Shown one piece after another: positions 1,944 through 45,980 of a stretch of 64,000 nucleotides of DNA. Source of the stretch: Escherichia phage 121Q; sequence record NC_025447.1; one strand, written 5' to 3'. The notes below the pieces were generated by a model. It saw only the letters and a program-made list of their open reading frames with translations. It ran no database searches and had not been told where the DNA came from. The position numbers and the translations under genes were made by a program. The stretch's first letter is position 1. The number at the start of each line of letters is the position of its first letter.

Positions 1944-3006
<1,063 letters not shown>

Positions 3007-3022
3007 AATATAGACTTAAAAA

Positions 3023-5183
<2,161 letters not shown>

Positions 5184-5184
<1 letters not shown>

Positions 5185-5975
5185 TGCCAAGTAAAAGTAA
5201 AAGTCAAGCCAAATTCTTTGCCGCAGCAGCACATAATCCAGAATTTGCAAAAAAAGCTGGAATTTCCCAAAGTGCAGCGAAAGAGTGGAATGCCGCTGAT
5301 GAAAAGGAAGGTAATCTTAAAAAAAGTTCTAAACTTCCTAATAAAGTAAAAGAAGCAAGTATGCGTAGTTTAGTTGATATTGTTCAAGATGCAGAATTAG
5401 CTGATACTGAAGACCGAACTTGTGATATAATGGATTCTTGTGAAGACGATAAAGATAAATTGAATGAAATGCCACAACGTTTCGATAGTTTTCAAGGTCA
5501 AAATAGAGATGAGTTTGTTGATAAAACTGCTGAAATGACTGGTAAACACAATATGGTTAAGTTCGCTGAACACAAAGATTATGATGTGTATATGAATAAA
5601 AATGGTACTGGTTTTATTGCTTACGATAAGGCTGGTAAACAGCTTGCTATCGTCAGTGGGCATTTATCTAATGATGCAGTACTTGGAGTTCAAAACGTCT
5701 TCGAGATTGCTGCTACTGCCTCTAAAACAGGCACTAAAGGTATAATTTATAATATCTTTATGGATATGGTATCACATGGTATTAAAGTGCTTAGTGATAG
5801 TCTTCATACTGATGATGCAATTAAATTCTGGACCCGTTTAATTGGTTCACACCAAGTTTATATTGTTGGTGGTGGTGAAGTTCTTGCTAAGGCGAGTCCA
5901 GATAAAGTTCATAAGTACTGGAGTGATGATGAATCAAGTCCGAGTGCTGAACTTCAACTTATGTTAGTAAAATAA
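5184..5975 (+). CDS. hypothetical protein
   Basis: 263-aa ORF, ATGA overlap with upstream gene. Confidence 0.6.
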
Positions 5976-6074
5976 TAATATATCGGGACAAATCGTTCCG
6001 ATATTTTTTTTTGAGACAAACAAAACATTGGTGATACAATGTTTTATGACAAAGAGACATGATAAGGAATTCAA

Positions 6075-8039
6075 ATGGCTAAGAAAGAAAGTGCTGTTCT
6101 ACAGGAACATGATGTTCAACGACTTAATGATTATCAACATGCTCGTTTGCGTACAGAGATGTACCTTGGTTCTCGTTCAGTACATGAAAGTCAAGTACTG
6201 ATTTTTGGCGAATCAGGATATGAGGTTAAGAACGTAGAATGGGTTCCTGCAATTCTTACTGCTACACGTGAAATTATTGATAACAGCTTAGATGAATTTA
6301 AAAAAGCTGGAACTAAAGAACCTGTATTGAAAGTTGATTTCAATGAAGAAGAACTATCATTTGAGATTAGTGATAATGGTCGTGGTATTCCAATTGATTA
6401 TGTACCAGAGTATCAAAAAAACCTATGTACTATGGTAATGACCGAAACAAAAACTGGTCGAAACTTTGATGATTCAAAACGTGATGAAACTATTGGTCAG
6501 AATGGATTGGGTGGTTCAGTTGCGATGATTGTTAGTTCTAAGGCAGAATTGGAAATTCATCGCCAAGGTCGTCCATATAAAACACAAAGCAGTAATGATG
6601 GTTATGATGGGTTTTATAAGTTCAATCAGAAGTTTGAGGAAGGAACTATTATGTTCCCTGAACTTCATGTACATGAGCCTACCATTCGAAAGGTACAAAC
6701 AGATAAGACTGGAACAACAATTCGTTTTACATTGAGTAAAGAAGTTTTTCCAAATAGAAAATTACCTACTGAATTACTTTACAGTATTCTTAAAGAAATG
6801 GCAGCCGCCAACCTAACTTATAAAATATTTTTGAATGGTAAACGTATTGTTATTAAAGGTAACACCGAGAAAGCATTGTTCAATGCATCTAAATTGATGC
6901 AGTTGAATGTTAAAGATGATTCTTTCAATTTTAACAGTACTTTTTATATTGTTCCAAATGCAGTATCTGGAATGAATACAAACTTCCATATGCATGGATT
7001 GGTTAATAATGCTCCTGCATTTGATGGTGGTACACATCTTGACACCTTCAAGAAATTCTTTTCATTGGGTGTAGGAACTGCATTGGAGAAAGAATCGAAG
7101 AAACGTAGGATGAAACCTAATCGTTCTGATATTGAAGAAGGTTTGTTGATTTACAATGTCACAACTATGAAAGCACCTTCATTCAACTCACAGATTAAAT
7201 CTAAACTAACTAATGAAAACGTAATTCGACCAATTCAACAAGCAATGAATACAGAATGGTTTGATGAATTAGTTAAGAAAAACAAAGAATGGGTTGATGA
7301 AATATTTGAACGTTGTGCTGCACGTACCAATAAGAAAGATGCAGAAGAAGACCGTCGCCTCGCTAAGAAACTACTGAAAGGTAAAGTTGCAAAGCTACTT
7401 GATAGTACTGGTACAGACCGTTCACAGTGTATTTTATTGATTGCAGAAGGTGACTCTGCAATTTCCAACATGGCTAGTGCTCGTATACCAAGTATTCATG
7501 GTATTCTACCATTGCGTGGGAAAATTATGAACGTCAGTGGTACTGAGAAAACCAAAGAATTAATGGATTCAATGGCGTTGCATGATATAATGGCTAGTAT
7601 CAACTTAGTTCCAGGTGTTAAAGCAGAACGTTCTGAACTAAACTATGGTAAGCTTTACATCTGTGCTGATGAAGATGAAGATGGGAAGAACATTGGTGCT
7701 CTAGTGTGTAACTTCTTATTTAAATTCTGGCCTGAATTGTTTCAAGACCCAGAAAATCCATTTGTGTATGTATTCAAAACACCATTTATCATTCTTGAGA
7801 AAGGTAAAGAATCAAAATACTACTATGGTCATAATGTGCATGAATATAACCCAGATGATTGGAAAGGCTGGAAAGCAACCCGTGCTAAAGGATTGGGTAC
7901 GTTAGAAAAAGCAAACTTCCGTGATGCATTCACTAACAGTGTTGCAGTAGCGATCACCGATGATGGACGTCTTGGTGAAACTCTTGATTTGATTTTCAAC
8001 AAGAAACGTGCAGATGATCGTAAGAACTGGATGGAATAA
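6075..8039 (+). CDS. 39: DNA topoisomerase II large subunit, ATPase + Toprim (fused gp39/gp60-type)
   Basis: GHKL ATPase motif EIIDNSLDE, GLGG loop, Toprim motif LLIAEGDSA; single 654-aa ORF covers both ATPase and Toprim regions. Confidence 0.85.
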   Translation: MAKKESAVLQEHDVQRLNDYQHARLRTEMYLGSRSVHESQVLIFGESGYEVKNVEWVPAILTATREIIDNSLDEFKKAGTKEPVLKVDFNEEELSFEISDNGRGIPIDYVPEYQKNLCTMVMTETKTGRNFDDSKRDETIGQNGLGGSVAMIVSSKAELEIHRQGRPYKTQSSNDGYDGFYKFNQKFEEGTIMFPELHVHEPTIRKVQTDKTGTTIRFTLSKEVFPNRKLPTELLYSILKEMAAANLTYKIFLNGKRIVIKGNTEKALFNASKLMQLNVKDDSFNFNSTFYIVPNAVSGMNTNFHMHGLVNNAPAFDGGTHLDTFKKFFSLGVGTALEKESKKRRMKPNRSDIEEGLLIYNVTTMKAPSFNSQIKSKLTNENVIRPIQQAMNTEWFDELVKKNKEWVDEIFERCAARTNKKDAEEDRRLAKKLLKGKVAKLLDSTGTDRSQCILLIAEGDSAISNMASARIPSIHGILPLRGKIMNVSGTEKTKELMDSMALHDIMASINLVPGVKAERSELNYGKLYICADEDEDGKNIGALVCNFLFKFWPELFQDPENPFVYVFKTPFIILEKGKESKYYYGHNVHEYNPDDWKGWKATRAKGLGTLEKANFRDAFTNSVAVAITDDGRLGETLDLIFNKKRADDRKNWME

Positions 8040-8050
8040 TATAGACTAAT

Positions 8051-8073
8051 GGGGAACATGGTGTTCCCCTTTT
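8051..8073 (+). terminator. intrinsic terminator
   Basis: GGGGAACATGGTGTTCCCC hairpin followed by TTTT. Confidence 0.6.
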
Positions 8074-8089
8074 ACCAAGAGACAATGGA

Positions 8090-9502
8090 ATGGCTAAAAG
8101 TAAAAAAACAGAAAATCATAATATCGATAACCAAACACTAACTCTACTAGATTATAACAGTTCTGATTATGTGAATACAACATCACTAGAATATTCGATG
8201 TATACACTAGACCGTGCTATTCCTGGAATTGATGGTCTAAAGAGTTCACAACGTAAAGCAATCTTCACATTATCTAAAATTAGTGGGGAAATTAAAACAG
8301 TATCATGTGCTGGAAAAATGATTAGTGATGGAATCTATCTTCATGGGGACACGTCAGCATCTGGAACACTTCAGAATCTAGCATCTCCAGTAGCCAACAA
8401 CTATCCTCTTATTGGAAAACGTGGTGGTTTTGGTACACAAGTAAACAGCACCCCAGCATCTGCTCGTTACACTTATGTTAAAAAGAATAAGAGTACTGAA
8501 ATGCTCGTTTTACGTGATGCTGACATTATCCCAATGAAAGAGAACTATGACGGGACCACATTTGAACCTGTTCACTTTTTACCTATTATCCCACTGTCAT
8601 TATTTGGTAATGATAGTATGTCAGTAGGGTATAAGAGTACAATTCTACCACATAAAATTGAAGATATTATTGATAATTGTATTCGTGCTATTGATAAAAA
8701 ACCACTAAAAGAAATGACACCATATTATGTATCATGTGGGGCAAGTGATGTAGTAACAAAACTAGATGAAAATAAGTATGAGTTTTATGGTAAAGCTGAA
8801 GTAATCGATGCAAGTACGGTTAAGGTGACAGGTTTACCACCTAATTATAGTATTGAGAAATTCATCGAAAAACTCATTAAAATGAGTGATGATGGTGAGA
8901 TTCGTGACTATGACAATGACAGTACTGATGTAATTGATATCACCATTAAACTTCCTCGTGGTACATCAGCTAAATGGTCAGAAATGGATGTTATTGAGTA
9001 TTTTGGTATTAACAAAAAAATGACTCAACATTTAACGGTTCTTGGAGAAAATGGTAAAGTAAAAGTTTACGATACAACAATGGATTTGATTAAAGACTTC
9101 GTTGATTTTCGTTTCAAGTATTACATCAAGCGTTATGAAAAGAAACTTGATGATTGTGCGGCTGAGGTTCGATACAAAATTCTAATCAAGGAATGCTTTG
9201 ATAATGATATGATTGCTAAGGTGAAAGGGTTTGCAAACCGTGCAGAAATGGTGGAATTTGTTAAATCATTAAATGCAGAAATTGAAGCAACTGACGAGAA
9301 TATTCAAAGCATTGTAAACTTCCCATCATATCGCTGGACACAAGATAATTATCAATCAGTACTACAAGATATTCAATATAATCTTGATTTGATGGATAAG
9401 TATAATGAACTATTATCTAATCATGACCTAATTTGGGACATTTATAAATCTGAACTTAAAGAACTAAGAAAGATTGATTTTACTCCTAAATCAGACAATT
9501 GA
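8090..9502 (+). CDS. 52: DNA topoisomerase II medium subunit (GyrA-like, gp52-type)
   Basis: DRAIPGIDGLKSSQRK resembles GyrA/ParC N-terminal breakage-reunion motif; sits directly downstream of the large subunit. Confidence 0.8.
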   Translation: MAKSKKTENHNIDNQTLTLLDYNSSDYVNTTSLEYSMYTLDRAIPGIDGLKSSQRKAIFTLSKISGEIKTVSCAGKMISDGIYLHGDTSASGTLQNLASPVANNYPLIGKRGGFGTQVNSTPASARYTYVKKNKSTEMLVLRDADIIPMKENYDGTTFEPVHFLPIIPLSLFGNDSMSVGYKSTILPHKIEDIIDNCIRAIDKKPLKEMTPYYVSCGASDVVTKLDENKYEFYGKAEVIDASTVKVTGLPPNYSIEKFIEKLIKMSDDGEIRDYDNDSTDVIDITIKLPRGTSAKWSEMDVIEYFGINKKMTQHLTVLGENGKVKVYDTTMDLIKDFVDFRFKYYIKRYEKKLDDCAAEVRYKILIKECFDNDMIAKVKGFANRAEMVEFVKSLNAEIEATDENIQSIVNFPSYRWTQDNYQSVLQDIQYNLDLMDKYNELLSNHDLIWDIYKSELKELRKIDFTPKSDN

Positions 9503-9512
9503 TATATTTTAT

Positions 9513-9544
9513 GGAAGACCTTACTGGGTCTTCCTTGTCCTTTA
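9513..9544 (+). terminator. putative terminator
   Basis: GGAAGACC..GGTCTTCC inverted repeat, weak U tract. Confidence 0.45.
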
Positions 9545-9590
9545 TATAAATAATCTATAGATAATGGCAGCTTGGCTATGGAGAATTATA

Positions 9591-11984
9591 ATGACAACTT
9601 TTACCCCACGTTGGGATATAAAAGCCGATGCTCGATATATACAAGAAGGACAAGACATTCTTGTGCGTTTGAGTATCAATAAAGAAAGCACAACGGATGA
9701 TAGCTATGTATTAAACGAAGATGAATACTTAGAGATGATTCTTAATATACAATGCTTGGATAGTTCAGGTGCTGTATTTGATCCAGAACCACATTATACT
9801 TTTTATGTTGGTAATGACGAAAATAGTTTTATTCCTATTTCAGATGGAACAACTGGTAATAAATTAGTAAATGGTAAGCATAAGTGTAAGATTAGCAAAA
9901 CAGAATTTAACTTATCATCAAGTACTAATACTGAAGATGTTTATTTTATAAAAATTCATTGTAAAAATGACGGAACATATAATAATACTGAAAATATAAA
10001 TTTTTATTTACAAGCAGTAAATGTTATGTATTTTGGGAATATTTCACCAAGTGGAGTTTTAGGATTAACAGATACTTCAATAACATATGATAGTCAGGAA
10101 GTTTGGGTTACACCTGGAGTTGAGATTGGTGATGACAAAAAACTTTATTGTATTGGTGATGTTGAGTATGGTTCAAACAGTACATTGTTTGTTCAAGGGT
10201 TTGGGAGAAGAAGACCTTTTATACTCGGTACTGACATGACTACCGATATTACCCCTCGTGTATTCTTTCCTGCATATCGTTTGATTGACATGGATATATC
10301 TGAAGTTCCAGATAAACATATTACTAATGATTATGCCGTATTTAAACCAGCACAACCAACATGGCCTATTTCTGGCATAAACAAAGAAGTAAAAGTTAAT
10401 ATTCAAAATAGAAATGGTAATTTAATTGATTCAGGTATGGTTTTTAACCCTAATGGACAATTACTACAAACATTTTTATATGATTCAGATGCGTGTGATG
10501 CATATTTCAAAGTTGAAATTGTTGATATATTAAGTACATACACAGAAGAAAGCGAAAGGTTTGCTATCAATCAAAGATATAAGGCATATCAAATGTGGGT
10601 TTGTCCTGAAGATATTGACACTATATATTCTATAGCTGACAAACCACTACCGAATCATTTATATCAATTAAAAGATAACGTTGTATATCCCTATGTGATT
10701 AGTGGTGAGTACGACAATGGGTCAATTAAACCAGTTTATGATAGTAGTGATTGGATTGATTTGGGATATTATGACTCTACTCTTGGTGATAATATCATTG
10801 GTATGCAGAAAATGTTCAGGGTTTTGATTAACGCTGAAGAAGGTAATAATATAAACTTTGTTACTGATAGTGATTTGGGAACTATACATGTTGGTGAATA
10901 TTTTGGAGACAGTACCTATCCTAGAATAGAAACTGATAGTTCAAATCAGGTTTCGTATGTTTTGGATGGTGGTGATGATATTAGGAAGTATGGAATAGAT
11001 TTGACACCTGACGGATATCTTGTTGGAACTGCATATGCCAAAAGTATTGACTTTAGTGAAAACGATGACATTAAACTATCGTTTTATGTTAAAGCATTTA
11101 GTACTGAAGGTGGCGAAGCAAGGAAAATATTTAACCTTAAGATTGTAAGAGGGTTCGGTCAGAATTATTTGAGTGCACATGTACTACCGTCTGTTGCATT
11201 TGAGCGAGAGTGGTTTAAATGTATCAGTACTTCATCATTTACTAATCAACTTTTTTTCCGTCAATCTGATAATAGGTATGGTCTTCAGAAAGTTCCTAGG
11301 ATGTTATTGAAAGAAAACTTTCTAAGTCAAACGTACCCATATACTAATCTTTCGGATATCAAAAAAGTATTACGAAATAGTATCATTAATCCAAATGGCT
11401 CTACTATACCAAATGGAAAATTTAAAATGGTAATGGGTAATTATAAATTGATATCAGCACTTGACAATCAAGGCAATTTGCAATATGATTTATTATATAG
11501 AGAAGTTTTACCTGAAGGTTCTTTAGTATCTGTATCCAAAAATCCTCGTATGTATACTCAAATAGATAATGGTCAGCTTGGTGAACTGTTTGGTCTACGT
11601 CAAAATATCTTTCAAGCTATTGGTGAAGACACAACAAACTTGGTAAAAGATCCAACTGATTTACAAAATCGTGGTCTATACGTTGATGCTATACCAAGTA
11701 TCAGCGATGAAATGCTTGATACCGTTCCAAGATTTATGAATCACCCATACATTGAAGATGGTATACAGAAAAAATTCATGCCTATTATCCCAGTCGCATT
11801 TTGTCAGCCAGGTAAAGGTGAAGCATTTTTCAACACTTTACTTCAGAATAATGAACATGGTACAATGGTAGGTCTAGAGTTTGAAATCACATCTGTCGAA
11901 TTTGGGTACTTTTCACATGAATCAGTAAATTATGTACCAGATACATTTGTGATTACATTGCAAAACAATAACATAGGAGGTTAA
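9591..11984 (+). CDS. large hypothetical protein
   Basis: About 800-aa ORF; start placed at second ATG 9591 with GGAG-like RBS (track ORF 9564); no recognised motif. Confidence 0.6.
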   Translation: MTTFTPRWDIKADARYIQEGQDILVRLSINKESTTDDSYVLNEDEYLEMILNIQCLDSSGAVFDPEPHYTFYVGNDENSFIPISDGTTGNKLVNGKHKCKISKTEFNLSSSTNTEDVYFIKIHCKNDGTYNNTENINFYLQAVNVMYFGNISPSGVLGLTDTSITYDSQEVWVTPGVEIGDDKKLYCIGDVEYGSNSTLFVQGFGRRRPFILGTDMTTDITPRVFFPAYRLIDMDISEVPDKHITNDYAVFKPAQPTWPISGINKEVKVNIQNRNGNLIDSGMVFNPNGQLLQTFLYDSDACDAYFKVEIVDILSTYTEESERFAINQRYKAYQMWVCPEDIDTIYSIADKPLPNHLYQLKDNVVYPYVISGEYDNGSIKPVYDSSDWIDLGYYDSTLGDNIIGMQKMFRVLINAEEGNNINFVTDSDLGTIHVGEYFGDSTYPRIETDSSNQVSYVLDGGDDIRKYGIDLTPDGYLVGTAYAKSIDFSENDDIKLSFYVKAFSTEGGEARKIFNLKIVRGFGQNYLSAHVLPSVAFEREWFKCISTSSFTNQLFFRQSDNRYGLQKVPRMLLKENFLSQTYPYTNLSDIKKVLRNSIINPNGSTIPNGKFKMVMGNYKLISALDNQGNLQYDLLYREVLPEGSLVSVSKNPRMYTQIDNGQLGELFGLRQNIFQAIGEDTTNLVKDPTDLQNRGLYVDAIPSISDEMLDTVPRFMNHPYIEDGIQKKFMPIIPVAFCQPGKGEAFFNTLLQNNEHGTMVGLEFEITSVEFGYFSHESVNYVPDTFVITLQNNNIGG

Positions 11985-40659: not shown

Positions 40660-40995
<336 letters not shown>

Positions 40996-40996
40996 A

Positions 40997-41179
40997 ATGA
41001 CACACGAAGAATGGATGTACAAACAGCATAAAGAACATGACTGCTTTGGGAATGGTATTCGTCAGGTACATTATGATATTCTCAAAGATATAAATTTATT
41101 CATAAAATATGTTTTGGATGAAAATAAACATTGGTTTATATATGAGATTGCATATAGAAACTCAAATAAACAAAAATAA
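40997..41179 (+). CDS. MTHEEW-family small protein
   Basis: MTHEEWMYKQ...HWFIYEIAYRN; paralog of 40477..40653. Confidence 0.5.
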   Translation: MTHEEWMYKQHKEHDCFGNGIRQVHYDILKDINLFIKYVLDENKHWFIYEIAYRNSNKQK

Positions 41180-41193
41180 ATAAGGAATATATT

Positions 41194-41412
41194 ATGGAAA
41201 CAACGTTATTTGAAGTTATTCAAGCATTAAAAACTGGTGATGACATTCAAGTATTGCTACATGGTTATCGTTTAAAAGGCACTGTGGTTTTAGTTAATGA
41301 CACAACGTTAGTTATTGCCGAAACAAATCCATATGATAGTAATCAAGTTGCTAATATCCATATTGATATTAAAAGCATTATTGGTGTAGGCGTAAATAAA
41401 AATCAAGAATAA
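41194..41412 (+). CDS. hypothetical small protein
   Basis: 72-aa ORF. Confidence 0.45.
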   Translation: METTLFEVIQALKTGDDIQVLLHGYRLKGTVVLVNDTTLVIAETNPYDSNQVANIHIDIKSIIGVGVNKNQE

Positions 41413-41490
41413 CAAATGTTTTTGAAAAAAACCAGAAAATGAATGATTTTTTTGGACAACTCAAAAATATATGATATAATAATTAGTACA

Positions 41491-41580
<90 letters not shown>

Positions 41581-41584
41581 ATAT

Positions 41585-41680
<96 letters not shown>

Positions 41681-41689
41681 CTAAAAACC

Positions 41690-41854
41690 ATGACGCATGA
41701 AGAATGGATGAATGATATTAATTTTAGATATTCGGGTATCGGTAGTTGGCGAAAATATCATTGGGAAATTATTTCAGACCCAGCAGAATACGATAAACTT
41801 ATAAACCATGAAGTATATCCGTGGTTCTTTATTGAAATAATGGTACGAATATGA
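41690..41854 (+). CDS. MTHEEW-family small protein
   Basis: MTHEEWMNDINFRYSGIGSW...; 54 aa. Confidence 0.5.
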   Translation: MTHEEWMNDINFRYSGIGSWRKYHWEIISDPAEYDKLINHEVYPWFFIEIMVRI

Positions 41855-42011
41855 CGCATGAAGAATGGATGAATGACATTAATTTTAGATATTCGGGTAT
41901 CGGTAAATGGCTAAAGTATCATTGGGAATTCATTTCAGAGCCACATATGTATGATAAACTTATCAACGATCCAGCATATGAAATGTACTTAATTGAACTA
42001 CTGGTACGAAT

Positions 42012-42015
<4 letters not shown>
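41851..42015 (+). CDS. MTHEEW-family small protein
   Basis: MTHEEWMNDINFRYSGIGKW...; near-duplicate of 41690 copy; ATGA overlap. Confidence 0.5.
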
Positions 42016-42177
<162 letters not shown>

Positions 42178-42185
42178 AAAAAAAG

Positions 42186-42595
<410 letters not shown>

Positions 42596-42599
<4 letters not shown>

Positions 42600-42630
42600 C
42601 TAAATAATTCAGTACTGAGGATATTAATAT
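42596..42630 (+). promoter_or_regulatory. degenerate copy of promoter cassette (copy 2)
   Basis: TTGACTAAATAATTCAGTACTGAGGATATTAATAT; -35 and spacer conserved, -10 degraded. Confidence 0.35.
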
Positions 42631-42656
42631 GTTTAAAGATGAACGTCCAGATTTGT

Positions 42657-42694
<38 letters not shown>

Positions 42695-42699
42695 GAATT

Positions 42700-43050
42700 C
42701 CACAATCAGACGTATATGGTGTAAGCTACGTCGATGCAATCCAGAACAAGATCTCTGGTACTCTAGGAAGTGGTGAATGTTAACCTAGACGGGTTTGATA
42801 ATTGGACGATAGGCAATTATTACTTGACTAGCAGGTTGAAACTAGAGGTGACAGTCCTTCACCAAACTGGAAAACCGGATGGACTTTTATTTAAAAGGGT
42901 AAGGCGTGGAAATATGTTTACAGAAGTTGCTTTTAGTAGCCTGTACGCCCCACGACAAGGTAGCCGAAAGGTAAGTTAAAACGGGTGGTTATAAAGCTGA
43001 ATTAACAGCGGCGTTTAAAAGCGTCACCATCCATTTTTTTAATTAAAGTT
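42700..43050 (+). ncRNA. candidate structured non-coding RNA downstream of early promoter
   Basis: About 350 nt between a consensus promoter and the next RBS with no convincing ORF, locally GC-richer, several hairpins including GGTGACAGTCCTTCACC and a GAAA-loop stem. Confidence 0.3.
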
Positions 43051-43056
43051 GGCGAT

Positions 43057-43809
<753 letters not shown>

Positions 43810-43826
43810 TTCACATGATATAGGGA

Positions 43827-44088
<262 letters not shown>

Positions 44089-44096
44089 GAATCTTC

Positions 44097-44498
44097 ATGA
44101 AAAAGAATGACTTGATCAAAATGCTCCAAGAGATTGACGGCAATCCAGAGATTGTTATTTGGAATGGCTATGTCGATGATTATATGAACATCGAAAAAGG
44201 CTTGACTAAAATCACACTAGTCAAAGAAACTGAACAGTTCCTTCTGAACGCATTAGAGCATGAATGGTGCGAACGTAACAAGACATTCGACATTCCAGAA
44301 GACCAACGAACTAAGATTGCAGAACGTGCTAAAGAACTTCATAAGAAGCGTGAATACGATTTCCAGAACCCATATGTTACTGAAGAAGAATTCAATCGCT
44401 GGTACGGAAAAAGAAAGTTGACAAAGTATGTTCTTTCACCTAAACTACGTGGTAAGACTTCTCTTGGTGTATTCAATGCATCTGACTTAGATTACTAA
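44097..44498 (+). CDS. hypothetical protein (paralog pair with 45138..45353)
   Basis: N-terminus MKKNDLIKMLQEIDGNPEIVIW resembles MKAKDLISILQKNPEADILIH. Confidence 0.55.
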   Translation: MKKNDLIKMLQEIDGNPEIVIWNGYVDDYMNIEKGLTKITLVKETEQFLLNALEHEWCERNKTFDIPEDQRTKIAERAKELHKKREYDFQNPYVTEEEFNRWYGKRKLTKYVLSPKLRGKTSLGVFNASDLDY

Positions 44499-44508
44499 GG
44501 AAAACAAA

Positions 44509-44829
44509 ATGATGTGGTATTCAAATGTACCGTGTGAACCTAAATATATTCAGATTTCACATAATGCACTGAAAGCGTTCTGTGATAATTGCAGTACTAA
44601 AGATTATCACTTCGAAGACTTCAGAACGTTGATTTATGACCATCACTGTCAGCCAGCAACCAAAGATGGTATGTTTGTAATTGAACAATTCTTTCATGGT
44701 AAGGTATTGCAAATTGTTGCTGATTATCTGAAAGCAATGGGATATATTATCAAAGATGATTATCTTGATTTAGAAGGTGAATGCATTGTTGATGGTTATG
44801 ATGGTGTACTGATGAATTGGACATGGTGA
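44509..44829 (+). CDS. hypothetical protein
   Basis: 106-aa ORF. Confidence 0.5.
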   Translation: MMWYSNVPCEPKYIQISHNALKAFCDNCSTKDYHFEDFRTLIYDHHCQPATKDGMFVIEQFFHGKVLQIVADYLKAMGYIIKDDYLDLEGECIVDGYDGVLMNWTW

Positions 44830-44833
44830 TGAA

Positions 44834-45136
44834 ATGATTGCAACAATGATGATTGTACTTATCCCAATAGTACTAGTAATTCTAGTGACTTCATATGGTG
44901 CAACCACAACTATTGAAGATCTAAAAACACATTACGCTATCGTCTTTAGTGAAGCACATGAAGACTTTGGTACAGTACTGACCGATAAGACTTATATTGC
45001 AACTAAATGTAAGTACTACCGATTCTGGGAACGTTCTGACAAATACCACTACAGAGATGAGAAAGGCGTGAATCAGTACTTAGACGTACTGGATGCATTC
45101 TTGAAACCTTACTATACAGTAACCGAGGTAAAATAA
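44834..45136 (+). CDS. hypothetical membrane-anchored protein
   Basis: N-terminal TM MIATMMIVLIPIVLVILV. Confidence 0.5.
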   Translation: MIATMMIVLIPIVLVILVTSYGATTTIEDLKTHYAIVFSEAHEDFGTVLTDKTYIATKCKYYRFWERSDKYHYRDEKGVNQYLDVLDAFLKPYYTVTEVK

Positions 45137-45137
45137 C

Positions 45138-45353
45138 GTGAAAGCTAAAGATTTGATTTCAATTTTACAGAAAAACCCAGAAGCAGATATTCTTATTCAT
45201 GCTTCGCCTTATGATGACTATGCGATTGGTAGTTGCGAAACTGCTCATTCATATCAAGCAGGGGACACCGCTGTTGAAGAGTCTGGTGAAGATTTTTCGG
45301 AATCATTTGATGAAGATGGAAAACTCTTAGTACCAGTCATCATTCTCTCATAA
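45138..45353 (+). CDS. hypothetical protein (paralog pair with 44097..44498)
   Basis: GTG start in track; N-terminal similarity to 44097 ORF. Confidence 0.45.
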   Translation: MKAKDLISILQKNPEADILIHASPYDDYAIGSCETAHSYQAGDTAVEESGEDFSESFDEDGKLLVPVIILS

Positions 45354-45360
45354 AAGAACG

Positions 45361-45543
<183 letters not shown>

Positions 45544-45562
45544 AGAGGTACTTCGAGTATGC

Positions 45563-45629
<67 letters not shown>

Positions 45630-45632
45630 TAA

Positions 45633-45661
45633 TTGACATAACTTTGAATGGAGTGTATTAT
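45633..45661 (+). promoter_or_regulatory. sigma70-type promoter
   Basis: TTGACA, 17-nt spacer, TATTAT. Confidence 0.5.
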
Positions 45662-45704
45662 GTTCCAAGAAGAAAACTGGGGTTTTTAACATAACGGGGA
45701 ATGT

Positions 45705-45837
<133 letters not shown>

Positions 45838-45838
45838 G

Positions 45839-45889
<51 letters not shown>

Positions 45890-45895
45890 TAATTA

Positions 45896-45968
45896 GCCGA
45901 CTTAGCTCAGTAGGTAGAGCGTTCCTCTTGTAAGGGAAATGTCACCAGTTCAATTCCGGTAGTCGGCA
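45896..45968 (+). tRNA. tRNA-Thr (anticodon UGU)
   Basis: Perfect acceptor GCCGACT/AGTCGGC, D-arm GCTCAGTAGGTAGAGC, anticodon loop CTTGTAA, T-loop TTCAATT; CCA not encoded. Confidence 0.65.
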
Positions 45969-45980
45969 CAAAATAAAGGT

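What the first reader, a model, noticed from the sequence alone, without database searches (positions are those of the whole stretch)
6075..9502. Topoisomerase II large subunit encoded as one fused ORF (no split or bypass element)
In T4 the ATPase/Toprim subunit is split into genes 39 and 60, the latter with a translational bypass. Here a single 654-aa ORF spans the GHKL ATPase and Toprim (EGDSA) regions and is followed directly by the GyrA-like subunit, a more ancestral arrangement useful for placing this phage among T4-like lineages.
Basis: partly seen in the sequence, partly recalled or inferred. Interest (0 to 1): 0.35.

Follow-up and report, generated by a model that had tools for sequence, protein, structure and literature searches.

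The report
Ordinary unsplit phage topoisomerase II genes
The window carries the two adjacent genes of a jumbo coliphage's own type II DNA topoisomerase. The large subunit is a single unsplit gene, which is the normal state in phages (T4's split gene is the exception), and the genes are already annotated in close relatives, so the finding is real but ordinary.

Summary
A 654-aa ORF (6075-8039, +) contains GHKL ATPase, transducer, Toprim (EGDSA at aa 458-462) and TOPRIM_C domains. After 50 nt comes a 470-aa GyrA/ParC-type cleavage-core ORF (8090-9502) that lacks the gyrase C-terminal domain. Residues 11-517 align with T4 gp39 3-473 and residues 520-653 with T4 gp60 29-158. The second ORF aligns with gp52. 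There is no split, no homing-endonuclease ORF, no coding gap and no relic of T4-type extensions.

The unsplit gene is the parental state, but it is nearly universal: 1865 of 2031 phage records with a homologue carry at least 80% of it in one piece, including T2. It therefore cannot place a phage among lineages.

The phage is not T4-like in the taxonomic sense. It is an Asteriusvirus (PBECO4/UB/phAPEC6 group, about 350 kb). This locus is 94-95% identical in DNA to those phages and is already annotated there as topoisomerase II large and medium subunits. Identity to T-even gp39 is only 25-28%.

The genes look functional: all catalytic motifs are intact, and 156 codon changes versus phage UB are synonymous against 12 non-synonymous. 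Minor extras are an intragenic recombination mosaic and the flanking virion-protein genes.

The parts
5980..6004 (+). Terminator-like hairpin plus T-run ending the upstream virion-protein genes. It marks the 5' edge of the topoisomerase unit.
   Evidence: 10-bp stem, followed by TTTTTTTTT; fold -12.4 kcal/mol, z -2.96.
6011..6040 (+). Sigma-70-like promoter candidate (TTGAGA, 18 nt, TACAAT, with TG), 35 nt upstream of the start codon. An AAGGA ribosome-binding site lies at about 6065-6069.
   Evidence: 10 of 12 matches, the joint-best score in the region; the number of sites in the region is not above shuffles, so this is only a candidate. Sequence read.
6075..8039 (+). Topoisomerase II large subunit gene, unsplit (654 aa). 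Domains: GHKL ATPase aa 62-220 (nt 6258-6734), transducer aa 305-427 (nt 6987-7355), Toprim aa 454-549 (nt 7434-7721), TOPRIM_C aa 567-654 (nt 7773-8036).
   Evidence: Motifs: EIIDNSLDE 66-74, DNGRGIP 100-106, GQNGLGGS 141-148, SQIKSK 372-377, EGDSA 458-462, PLRGK 479-483, DEDEDG 532-537.
7623..7688 (+). The stretch equivalent to T4's disruption. The T4 gp39/gp60 junction maps between aa 517 and 520 (nt 7623-7634). The T4 50-nt coding gap (after gp60 Gly46) maps between Gly537 (GGG) and Lys538 (AAG), nt 7683-7688. Here the reading frame is continuous, with no stop, no insert and no CTE/NTE-like relic.
8051..8069 (+). Short G+C-rich hairpin (GGGGAACA-TGG-TGTTCCCC) followed by TTTT in the 50-nt spacer between the two genes. 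It could be a weak attenuator or an RNA-stability element. A 'terminator' feature is annotated under the match in phage G17.
   Evidence: -14.1 kcal/mol, z only -1.73, so weak. G17 feature list.
8090..9502 (+). Topoisomerase II medium subunit gene (470 aa). It is the gp52/GyrA/ParC-type DNA breakage-reunion core (WHD, tower, coiled coil). Arg126-Tyr127 lie in the ARYT motif (Tyr codon nt 8468-8470). There is no beta-pinwheel C-terminal domain.
9513..9534 (+). Terminator-like hairpin 11 nt after the medium-subunit stop codon. It marks the 3' edge of the two-gene unit.
   Evidence: 9-bp stem, 5 G-C pairs.: -15.9 kcal/mol, z -4.49, 0 of 200 shuffles as stable.

Best explanation
These are the two genes of the phage's own ATP-dependent type IIA DNA topoisomerase, of the two-subunit phage kind typified by T2/T6 gp39 + gp52. 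They belong to an Asteriusvirus (PBECO4-like) jumbo coliphage.

Inferred mechanism, by homology to solved T6/T4, bacterial and eukaryotic enzymes:
- Two large subunits (GHKL ATPase, transducer, Toprim) and two medium subunits (winged-helix domain with the catalytic tyrosine, tower, coiled-coil C-gate) form an A2B2 enzyme.
- ATP-driven dimerisation of the GHKL domains captures one duplex.
- Tyr127 of each medium subunit, together with the Mg2+-binding Toprim acidic residues (E458, D532, D534, D536), cleaves the other duplex.
- The captured duplex is passed through the break, which is then resealed.

The medium subunit has no GyrA-type C-terminal DNA-wrapping domain. The enzyme should therefore relax and decatenate DNA, helping replication and segregation of a ~350-kb genome, rather than introduce negative supercoils.

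The two genes appear to form one unit bracketed by hairpin terminators, with a sigma-70-like promoter candidate upstream. The unsplit large-subunit gene is simply the normal state, never invaded by the MobA/bypass cassette that split T4 gene 39 into 39 and 60.

Shown here: ORFs, domains, motifs, colinearity with gp39+gp60 and gp52, conservation and purifying selection. Inferred: subunit stoichiometry, activity and transcription signals.
For: - ORFs.
- Pfam: four ordered large-subunit domains and a full-length DNA_topoisoIV match, all above gathering scores.
- PHROGs: phrog_543 'DNA topoisomerase II large subunit' E 3e-184; phrog_551 'DNA topoisomerase II' E 3e-143.
- Solved structures: the best hit for both subunits is the T6/T4 topo II (8ylu_C E 2.5e-45; 8ylu_A E 1.5e-35), followed by GyrB and eukaryotic Topo II.
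- Colinearity with T4 gp39 then gp60, and with unsplit T2 gp39.
- All catalytic motifs present.
- Purifying selection: 40 synonymous vs 5 non-synonymous (large) and 116 vs 7 (medium) codon changes against phage UB.
- Existing annotation: the same two genes, in the same order, are annotated as topoisomerase II large and medium subunits in UB, PBECO4 and others at 94-95% nt identity.
- No gyrase features: no DNA_gyraseA_C or GyrB C-terminal Pfam match. NCBIfam gyrA/gyrB/parC/parE equivalog scores (50-200 bits) are far below their cut-offs (629-900 bits).
- No intron or other RNA family in the locus.
Against: - No biochemical data exist for this protein or any Asteriusvirus homologue, so activity, stoichiometry and the absence of supercoiling activity rest on homology.
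- The promoter candidate is one of 16 consensus matches, where 16.6 are expected by chance.
- The inter-gene hairpin is weak (z -1.73).
- Several database records call the genes gyrB/gyrA.
- The large subunit scores almost as well against E. coli GyrB as against T6 gp39, so assignment to the 'T4-type' branch rather than merely to 'type IIA' rests mainly on the medium subunit, the TOPRIM_C domain and the PHROG families.
Confidence: 0.93

Rival explanations
1. The pair is a true DNA gyrase (GyrB + GyrA), as several GenBank records label it. It would wrap DNA and introduce negative supercoils into the phage genome.
For: Some records annotate the homologues as gyrB/gyrA (slurp01, Sharanji, SP27). 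The best NCBIfam hits by E-value are gyrase B and gyrase A models. E. coli GyrB is a strong PDB hit (E 5e-42).
Against: - The 470-aa subunit ends with the coiled-coil core. It has no GyrA C-terminal beta-pinwheel or GyrA-box, which is needed for wrapping (Pfam DNA_topoisoIV only).
- NCBIfam scores are 100 bits against a cut-off of 877 for gyrA, and 200 against 882 for gyrB.
- The large-subunit tail matches TOPRIM_C, a family separate from the bacterial GyrB C-terminal domain, which gave no match.
- The medium subunit is closer to gp52 and eukaryotic Topo II (E 1e-35 to 1e-32) than to GyrA (E 1e-19).
- The T6 enzyme of the same architecture is described as lacking the CTD and as a relaxing enzyme (PMC11461880).
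Confidence: 0.04
2. One reading: the unsplit large-subunit gene plus the adjacent medium-subunit gene is an informative ancestral character that helps place this phage among T4-like lineages.
For: The unsplit form is indeed the parental state of T4's split gene. Direct adjacency of the two genes was seen only in this group and in Xanthomonas phage XaC1. It was not seen in T4, T2, the Schizotequatrovirus R11Z or Agrobacterium phage OLIVR6.
Against: - The unsplit state occurs in 1865 of 2031 phage records.
- The split occurs sporadically by independent MobA insertions, even between genomes 96-99% identical in this gene. Presence or absence therefore says nothing about deep relationships.
- The phage is classified in Asteriusvirus, outside Straboviridae, with only 25-28% aa identity to T-even gp39.
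- Gene-order polarity (ancestral or derived) cannot be inferred from the five outgroups inspected.
Confidence: 0.05
3. The genes are decaying remnants or a non-catalytic derivative (for example a structural or virion protein that has lost enzymatic function), given that they sit among virion-protein genes.
For: The flanking ORFs match PHROG 'virion structural protein' families. The phAPEC6 homologue of the medium subunit was detected in purified virions (2 peptides, 8.1% coverage; PMC7247149).
Against: - Every catalytic motif of both subunits is intact.
- Both ORFs are full length and colinear with the active T6 enzyme.
- Substitutions against UB are overwhelmingly synonymous (156 vs 12 codons).
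- The large subunit is at least 99% identical in protein across 20 records, although the DNA differs by about 5%.
Confidence: 0.02

Closest known systems
Topoisomerase II large and medium subunit genes of Asteriusvirus phages (PBECO4 gp453/gp452, UB AXC36707/AXC36706, phAPEC6, SP27, G17 and others)
   Same: Same two genes with the same lengths (1965 and 1413 nt) and the same 50-nt spacer. The flanking virion-protein genes are also the same. Locus DNA identity is 94-95%, and 20 records match the large subunit at 99% protein identity or more.
   Different: The window is a mosaic relative to sequenced relatives. Positions 6075-7424 are nearly identical to UB and 7425-8324 nearly identical to PBECO4. 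The last ~1100 nt of the medium-subunit gene are at most 92.6% identical to anything in the phage collection.
T2/T6 topoisomerase II (unsplit gp39 + gp52; PDB 8ylu and related entries)
   Same: A two-subunit type IIA enzyme. The large subunit is GHKL-transducer-Toprim. The medium subunit is WHD-tower-coiled coil without a C-terminal wrapping domain. These are the best solved-structure matches for both subunits.
   Different: Identity is only about 25-28%. The large subunit here is about 50 aa longer, with lineage-specific insertions in the GHKL domain (about aa 177-205) that are shared with XaC1. In T-even phages the two genes are several kb apart; here they are adjacent.
T4 topoisomerase II (gp39 + gp60 + gp52, with the MobA element and 50-nt translational bypass)
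   Same: Homologous throughout. Aa 11-517 correspond to gp39 3-473, aa 520-653 to gp60 29-158, and the second ORF to gp52.
   Different: Here there is no split, no HNH endonuclease ORF and no 50-nt gap. There are also none of the insert-derived extensions: the last ~43 aa of gp39 and the first ~28 aa of gp60 have no counterpart.
Bacterial GyrB/GyrA and ParE/ParC
   Same: The enzyme is divided into a B subunit (ATPase + Toprim) and an A subunit (cleavage core). All catalytic motifs are shared. E. coli GyrB matches at E 5e-42.
   Different: No GyrA/ParC C-terminal domain. The tail matches TOPRIM_C, not the GyrB C-terminal family. NCBIfam equivalog cut-offs are missed by a factor of 4-9.
Eukaryotic topoisomerase II
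   Same: It has the TOPRIM_C domain and lacks the beta-pinwheel. The medium subunit is closer to eukaryotic Topo II (E 1e-34 to 1e-28) than to bacterial GyrA (E 1e-19).
   Different: Here there are two polypeptides instead of one chain, and no eukaryotic C-terminal regulatory region.

Membership tests
Type IIA DNA topoisomerase, B-type (ATPase + Toprim) subunit | GHKL ATP-binding fold with an N-box (E..N), a G1 box (DxGxG) and a G2 glycine loop | tested here: met
   HATPase_c 37.1 bits against a cut-off of 26.4. Motifs EIIDNSLDE 66-74, DNGRGIP 100-106, GQNGLGGS 141-148. They align with the GyrB and T6 gp39 motifs.
Type IIA DNA topoisomerase, B-type (ATPase + Toprim) subunit | Transducer domain with the Q-x-K loop lysine that contacts the ATP gamma-phosphate | tested here: met
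   DNA_gyraseB 61.7 bits against a cut-off of 27. SQIKSK 372-377 aligns with the 'SQTKDK' of GyrB and the 'SQTKER' of T6/T2.
Type IIA DNA topoisomerase, B-type (ATPase + Toprim) subunit | Toprim domain with the conserved Glu (EGDSA) and the DxDxD metal-binding motif | tested here: met
   Toprim 35.1 bits against a cut-off of 23.1. E458 lies in EGDSA. D532/D534/D536 lie in DEDEDG. D536 and G537 are invariant in alignment A1.
Type IIA DNA topoisomerase, A-type (breakage-reunion) subunit | Winged-helix domain with the catalytic Tyr preceded by Arg, plus tower and coiled-coil C-gate | tested here: met
   DNA_topoisoIV 212.9 bits, profile positions 1-432 of 432. ARYT at 125-128 aligns with gp52 'SRY'.
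Type IIA DNA topoisomerase (whole enzyme) | ATP-dependent double-strand passage activity of an A2B2 complex | not testable with these tools
   Requires purified proteins and relaxation/decatenation assays.
Phage two-subunit topoisomerase II (T2/T6 gp39 + gp52 type) | An unsplit large subunit colinear with gp39(+gp60), a short medium subunit without a C-terminal wrapping domain, and phage-family profile membership | tested here: met
   phrog_543 E 3e-184 over aa 2-654; phrog_551 E 3e-143. The best PDB hits are the T6/T4 subunits. Colinear alignment with T2 gp39. No DNA_gyraseA_C match. Identity to T-even proteins is low (25-28%).
T4-type split large subunit with MobA/translational-bypass cassette (genes 39 / mobA / 60) | Large-subunit ORF interrupted within Toprim, with insert-derived C- and N-terminal extensions | tested here: not met
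   A single 654-aa ORF. The alignment is continuous across the T4 junction at aa 517-520, with no extra residues.
T4-type split large subunit with MobA/translational-bypass cassette (genes 39 / mobA / 60) | A 50-nt untranslated gap after the Gly codon of the D-x-D-x-D-G motif, and an HNH (MobA) endonuclease ORF | tested here: not met
   Gly537 (GGG) is followed directly by Lys538 (AAG). There is no HNH or other endonuclease domain in either ORF or in the neighbouring ORFs.
DNA gyrase (GyrB/GyrA) | GyrA C-terminal beta-pinwheel with GyrA-box; scores reaching the gyrA/gyrB equivalog models | tested here: not met
   The protein ends at aa 470 with no C-terminal-domain match. TIGR01063 gyrA scores 100.1 bits against a cut-off of 877. 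TIGR01059 gyrB scores 199.9 against 882.4.
T4-like phages (Straboviridae) as host genome of the locus | Genome-level relatedness to Straboviridae | tested here: not met
   The nearest genomes are all Asteriusvirus (Caudoviricetes, no family assigned), ~350-kb jumbo phages at about 96% identity over 25 kb. Straboviridae homologues are 25-29% identical in protein.

The most novel reading that the evidence does not exclude
The topoisomerase, or at least its medium subunit, may be packaged in the virion and delivered with the ~350-kb genome to act on it immediately after injection.

Two observations make this worth stating. The two genes sit as their own terminator-bracketed unit inside a run of virion-protein genes. 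The phAPEC6 homologue of the medium subunit was detected by mass spectrometry in purified particles.

My evidence neither supports nor excludes it. It rests on 2 peptides in one published proteome of a relative, and this window offers no way to test it.
Probability: 0.12. Interest if true: 0.4.

Novelty: already known. Interest (0 to 1): 0.08.

Why it matters
It matters little. The result confirms that this jumbo coliphage, like most large myoviruses, carries its own two-subunit type II topoisomerase, with the large subunit in the usual unsplit form. It also corrects two misconceptions. First, the unsplit form is the rule in phages and T4's split with bypass is the exception. Second, the phage is an Asteriusvirus, not a T4-like phage. 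A practical by-product is that the 'gyrB/gyrA', 'clamp loader subunit' and 'hypothetical protein' labels on these genes in several GenBank records should read topoisomerase II large/medium subunit.

Tried and rejected
- **Hidden interruptions.** An Rfam scan of the whole window found only tRNAs, with no group I/II intron in the locus. Pfam and PHROGs found no HNH, GIY-YIG, LAGLIDADG or Hint/intein domain in either subunit or the neighbouring ORFs.
- **'Hit-and-run' relics of a MobA insertion** (CTE/NTE-like extra residues, as reported for Aeromonas phages). The alignment is gap-free across the junction.
- **Repeats around the locus.** Only short, low-identity chance matches were found.
- **Link between the recombination breakpoint and the T4 MobA target site.** The breakpoint at ~7425 lies about 200 nt upstream of the junction equivalent (7623-7688). 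Similar ~99%/~90% identity blocks occur all along the first 15 kb of the window. I therefore treat it as general mosaicism, not endonuclease-driven conversion.
- **Gyrase reading.** Considered and rejected (see rivals).
- **Searches not run.** I did not run the large protein-database searches, the structure prediction or the fold searches. Sequence-level matches to solved structures at E 1e-35 to 1e-45, together with existing annotation, already settle the identity.
- **Technical note.** The first script failed because the T4 loci were not available to the script machine. The T4 proteins were instead obtained with the translate tool.
Full report
**1. What is in the sequence**

Pfam results, all above the curated cut-offs:

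| Protein | Family | Residues |
|---|---|---|
| 654 aa | HATPase_c | 62-220 |
| 654 aa | DNA_gyraseB (transducer) | 305-427 |
| 654 aa | Toprim | 454-549 |
| 654 aa | TOPRIM_C | 567-654 |
| 470 aa | DNA_topoisoIV (profile 1-432 of 432, E 1e-62) | 42-457 |

The 470-aa protein has nothing beyond the breakage-reunion core. The quoted EGDSA motif is at aa 458-462.

**2. Correspondence with T4 gp39, gp60 and gp52**

I took the T4 genes from NC_000866 and translated them. gp60 was joined across its annotated 50-nt bypass gap.

BLASTP results:

| Window protein | T4 protein | Identity | E-value |
|---|---|---|---|
| 654 aa, residues 11-517 | gp39 3-473 | 25% | 4e-20 |
| 654 aa, residues 520-653 | gp60 29-158 | 33% | 1e-16 |
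| 470 aa, residues 28-389 | gp52 12-380 | 28% | 2e-37 |

- The last ~43 residues of gp39 and the first ~28 of gp60 have no counterpart here. The literature assigns these to the inserted mobile element.
- In the multiple alignment with unsplit T2 gp39 and three other phage homologues, the window protein runs without a gap across the T4 junction.
- The T4 coding gap follows the Gly of the D-x-D-x-D-G motif. Here Gly537 (GGG) is followed directly by Lys538 (AAG), at nt 7683-7688.
- PHROG 7229, a 172-position 'DNA topoisomerase II' profile, also matches aa 493-654.

The C-terminal part does correspond to gp60.

**3. Which phage this is**

Megablast of the locus and of the first 25 kb finds only ~350-kb jumbo phages of the genus Asteriusvirus: UB, PBECO4, phAPEC6, SP27, G17, CRJP21 and others. 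Identity is 94-96%, with the same gene order.

Their records already annotate these two genes as 'topoisomerase II large subunit' and 'topoisomerase II medium subunit'. Some records use 'gyrB/gyrA', 'hypothetical protein' or plainly wrong names.

The taxonomy line is Caudoviricetes; Asteriusvirus, not Straboviridae. Large-subunit identity falls off as follows:

| Phage | Large-subunit protein identity |
|---|---|
| Xanthomonas jumbo phage XaC1 | 67% |
| Agrobacterium phage OLIVR6 | 38-40% |
| T4-like phages | 25-29% |

Against solved structures, the large subunit scores about equally against three enzymes:
- T6 gp39: E 2.5e-45.
- E. coli GyrB: E 5e-42.
- Human Topo II alpha: E 6e-39.

The medium subunit is closest to gp52 (1.5e-35) and eukaryotic Topo II (1e-34 to 1e-28), and much further from GyrA (1e-19).

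**4. Is the unsplit gene informative?**

No.
- tblastn of the 654-aa protein against 50,697 phage records finds homologues in 2031. In 1865 of these, at least 80% of the protein is matched in one contiguous place. These include T2 and hundreds of Straboviridae.
- Manning and Atkins (bioRxiv 10.1101/2022.08.31.505936) show that the T4 split is caused by a ~1.1-kb MobA element. It has inserted independently in several myovirus clades. In each clade, uninserted sister genomes are 96-99% identical in the topoisomerase gene.
- The T4/T6 structural paper (PMC11461880) states that T2 and T6 have the two-subunit enzyme and that T4's three-subunit form is unique among known type IIA enzymes.
[quoted passage not shown] (PMC7824862).

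'Ancestral relative to T4' is therefore right, but the character is shared by nearly everything and cannot place a lineage.

Direct adjacency of the two genes is less common:
- Adjacent in XaC1.
- Separated by three small ORFs in OLIVR6.
- No annotated medium-subunit gene within the 4 kb (R11Z) or the ~2.4 kb to the record end (T2) inspected downstream.
- About 7.5 kb apart across the T4 map origin.

With so few comparisons, the polarity of this character is undetermined.

**5. Function and mechanism**

All catalytic elements are present:
- GHKL N-box (EIIDNSLDE), G1 box (DNGRGIP) and G2 loop (GQNGLGGS).
- Q-x-K loop (SQIKSK, K375).
- Toprim E458 and D532/D534/D536.
- The medium subunit's Arg126-Tyr127.

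Against phage UB, the large-subunit gene has 40 synonymous and 5 non-synonymous codon changes. The medium-subunit gene has 116 and 7. This is strong purifying selection.

By homology, the enzyme is an A2B2 ATP-dependent strand-passage topoisomerase. There is no GyrA C-terminal domain. NCBIfam gyrase and topo IV equivalog scores are 4-9 times below their cut-offs. It should therefore relax and decatenate DNA rather than supercoil it, as reported for the T6 enzyme of the same architecture.

The activity is inferred, not shown.

**6. Local signals**

- A hairpin with a T-run at 5980-6004 closes the upstream genes.
- A sigma-70-like match (TTGAGA, 18 nt, TACAAT) lies at 6011-6040, and an AAGGA ribosome-binding site precedes the ATG.
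- A short G+C hairpin followed by TTTT sits in the inter-gene spacer at 8051-8069. It is weak (z -1.73).
- A strong hairpin at 9513-9534 follows the second gene (z -4.49, 0 of 200 shuffles as stable).

The two genes thus look like a self-contained unit. The promoter call is only a consensus match and is not above chance for the region.

**7. Other things seen**

- *Mosaic.* The window is a mosaic of Asteriusvirus alleles.
  - Positions 6075-7424 differ from UB at 3 positions but from PBECO4 at 94.
  - Positions 7425-8324 are nearly identical to PBECO4 and about 9% from UB.
  - From ~8325 onward the divergence from both rises to about 8-10%.
  - The best match in the collection for 8400-9502 is 92.6%.
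  - One breakpoint therefore lies inside the large-subunit gene, at about aa 450, just before Toprim.
  - Similar alternating blocks occur across the first 15 kb, so this is general homologous recombination.
- *Virion-protein neighbours.* The genes on both sides belong to PHROG 'virion structural protein' families. In phAPEC6 the homologues of these neighbours were found in virions by mass spectrometry, as was the medium subunit weakly (2 peptides) (PMC7247149).

**8. Verdict**

The homology reading is correct. The evolutionary usefulness is overstated, and the phage is not T4-like. The feature is already known and annotated. Interest is low.

Noticed in passing
window 6075-9502 (breakpoints near 7425 and 8325-8475): Recombination mosaic inside the topoisomerase locus. 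Positions 6075-7424 are almost identical to phage UB (3 differences) but differ from PBECO4 at 94 positions. Positions 7425-8324 are almost identical to PBECO4 and about 9% from UB. From ~8325 the divergence from both rises to about 8-10%, and the best database match for 8400-9502 is 92.6%. One breakpoint falls inside the large-subunit gene, just before the Toprim domain.
   Followed up: partly
window 3595-5975 and 9564-11984: The topoisomerase genes are sandwiched between genes of PHROG 'virion structural protein' families (529-aa, 263-aa and 806-aa ORFs). In phAPEC6 the homologues of these neighbours, and weakly the medium topoisomerase subunit (2 peptides), were detected in virions.
   Followed up: partly
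window 9545-9552: TATAAATA, which is the T4 late-promoter consensus (from my own knowledge), lies between the terminator at 9513-9534 and the start of the 806-aa virion-protein gene. The octamer is strongly under-represented in the window: 3 matches against 12.05 +/- 3.2 expected, and every one of 100 shuffles had at least 3. That would fit a functional signal avoided elsewhere.
   Followed up: partly
window 40682-45969: Cluster of six tRNA genes called by ARAGORN: Gly-TCC, Ser-TGA, Ser-ACT, Met-CAT, Asn-GTT and Thr-TGT. The Ser gene with anticodon ACT is unusual. The Gly-TCC call at 40682-40754 is not confirmed by Rfam at gathering score.
   Followed up: no
window about 6600-6690 (aa ~177-205 of the large subunit): An insertion of roughly 25-30 aa in the GHKL ATPase domain relative to T-even gp39 and E. 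coli GyrB. It is shared with Xanthomonas phage XaC1 and is largely absent from OLIVR6. Its function is unknown.
   Followed up: no
window about 1945-3620 (by correspondence with UB locus L001 1871-3550): Upstream neighbours are annotated in relatives as an IF-3-like translation initiation factor, a ClpS-like protease adaptor and a DnaJ-like/KTSC-domain protein. These are host-like translation and proteostasis genes in a phage genome.
   Followed up: no
GenBank records of relatives (one search hits H3, H4, H5, H13, H16-H19): Annotation of this locus is inconsistent across relatives. Labels include 'clamp loader subunit' over the medium subunit in CRJP21, 'gyrB/gyrA' in slurp01 and Sharanji, and 'hypothetical protein' in the Salmonella SD phages.
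   Followed up: no
window 9564 vs 9591: The 806-aa ORF has two in-frame ATG codons 27 nt apart. Relatives annotate a 2394-nt gene that fits the second ATG.
   Followed up: no
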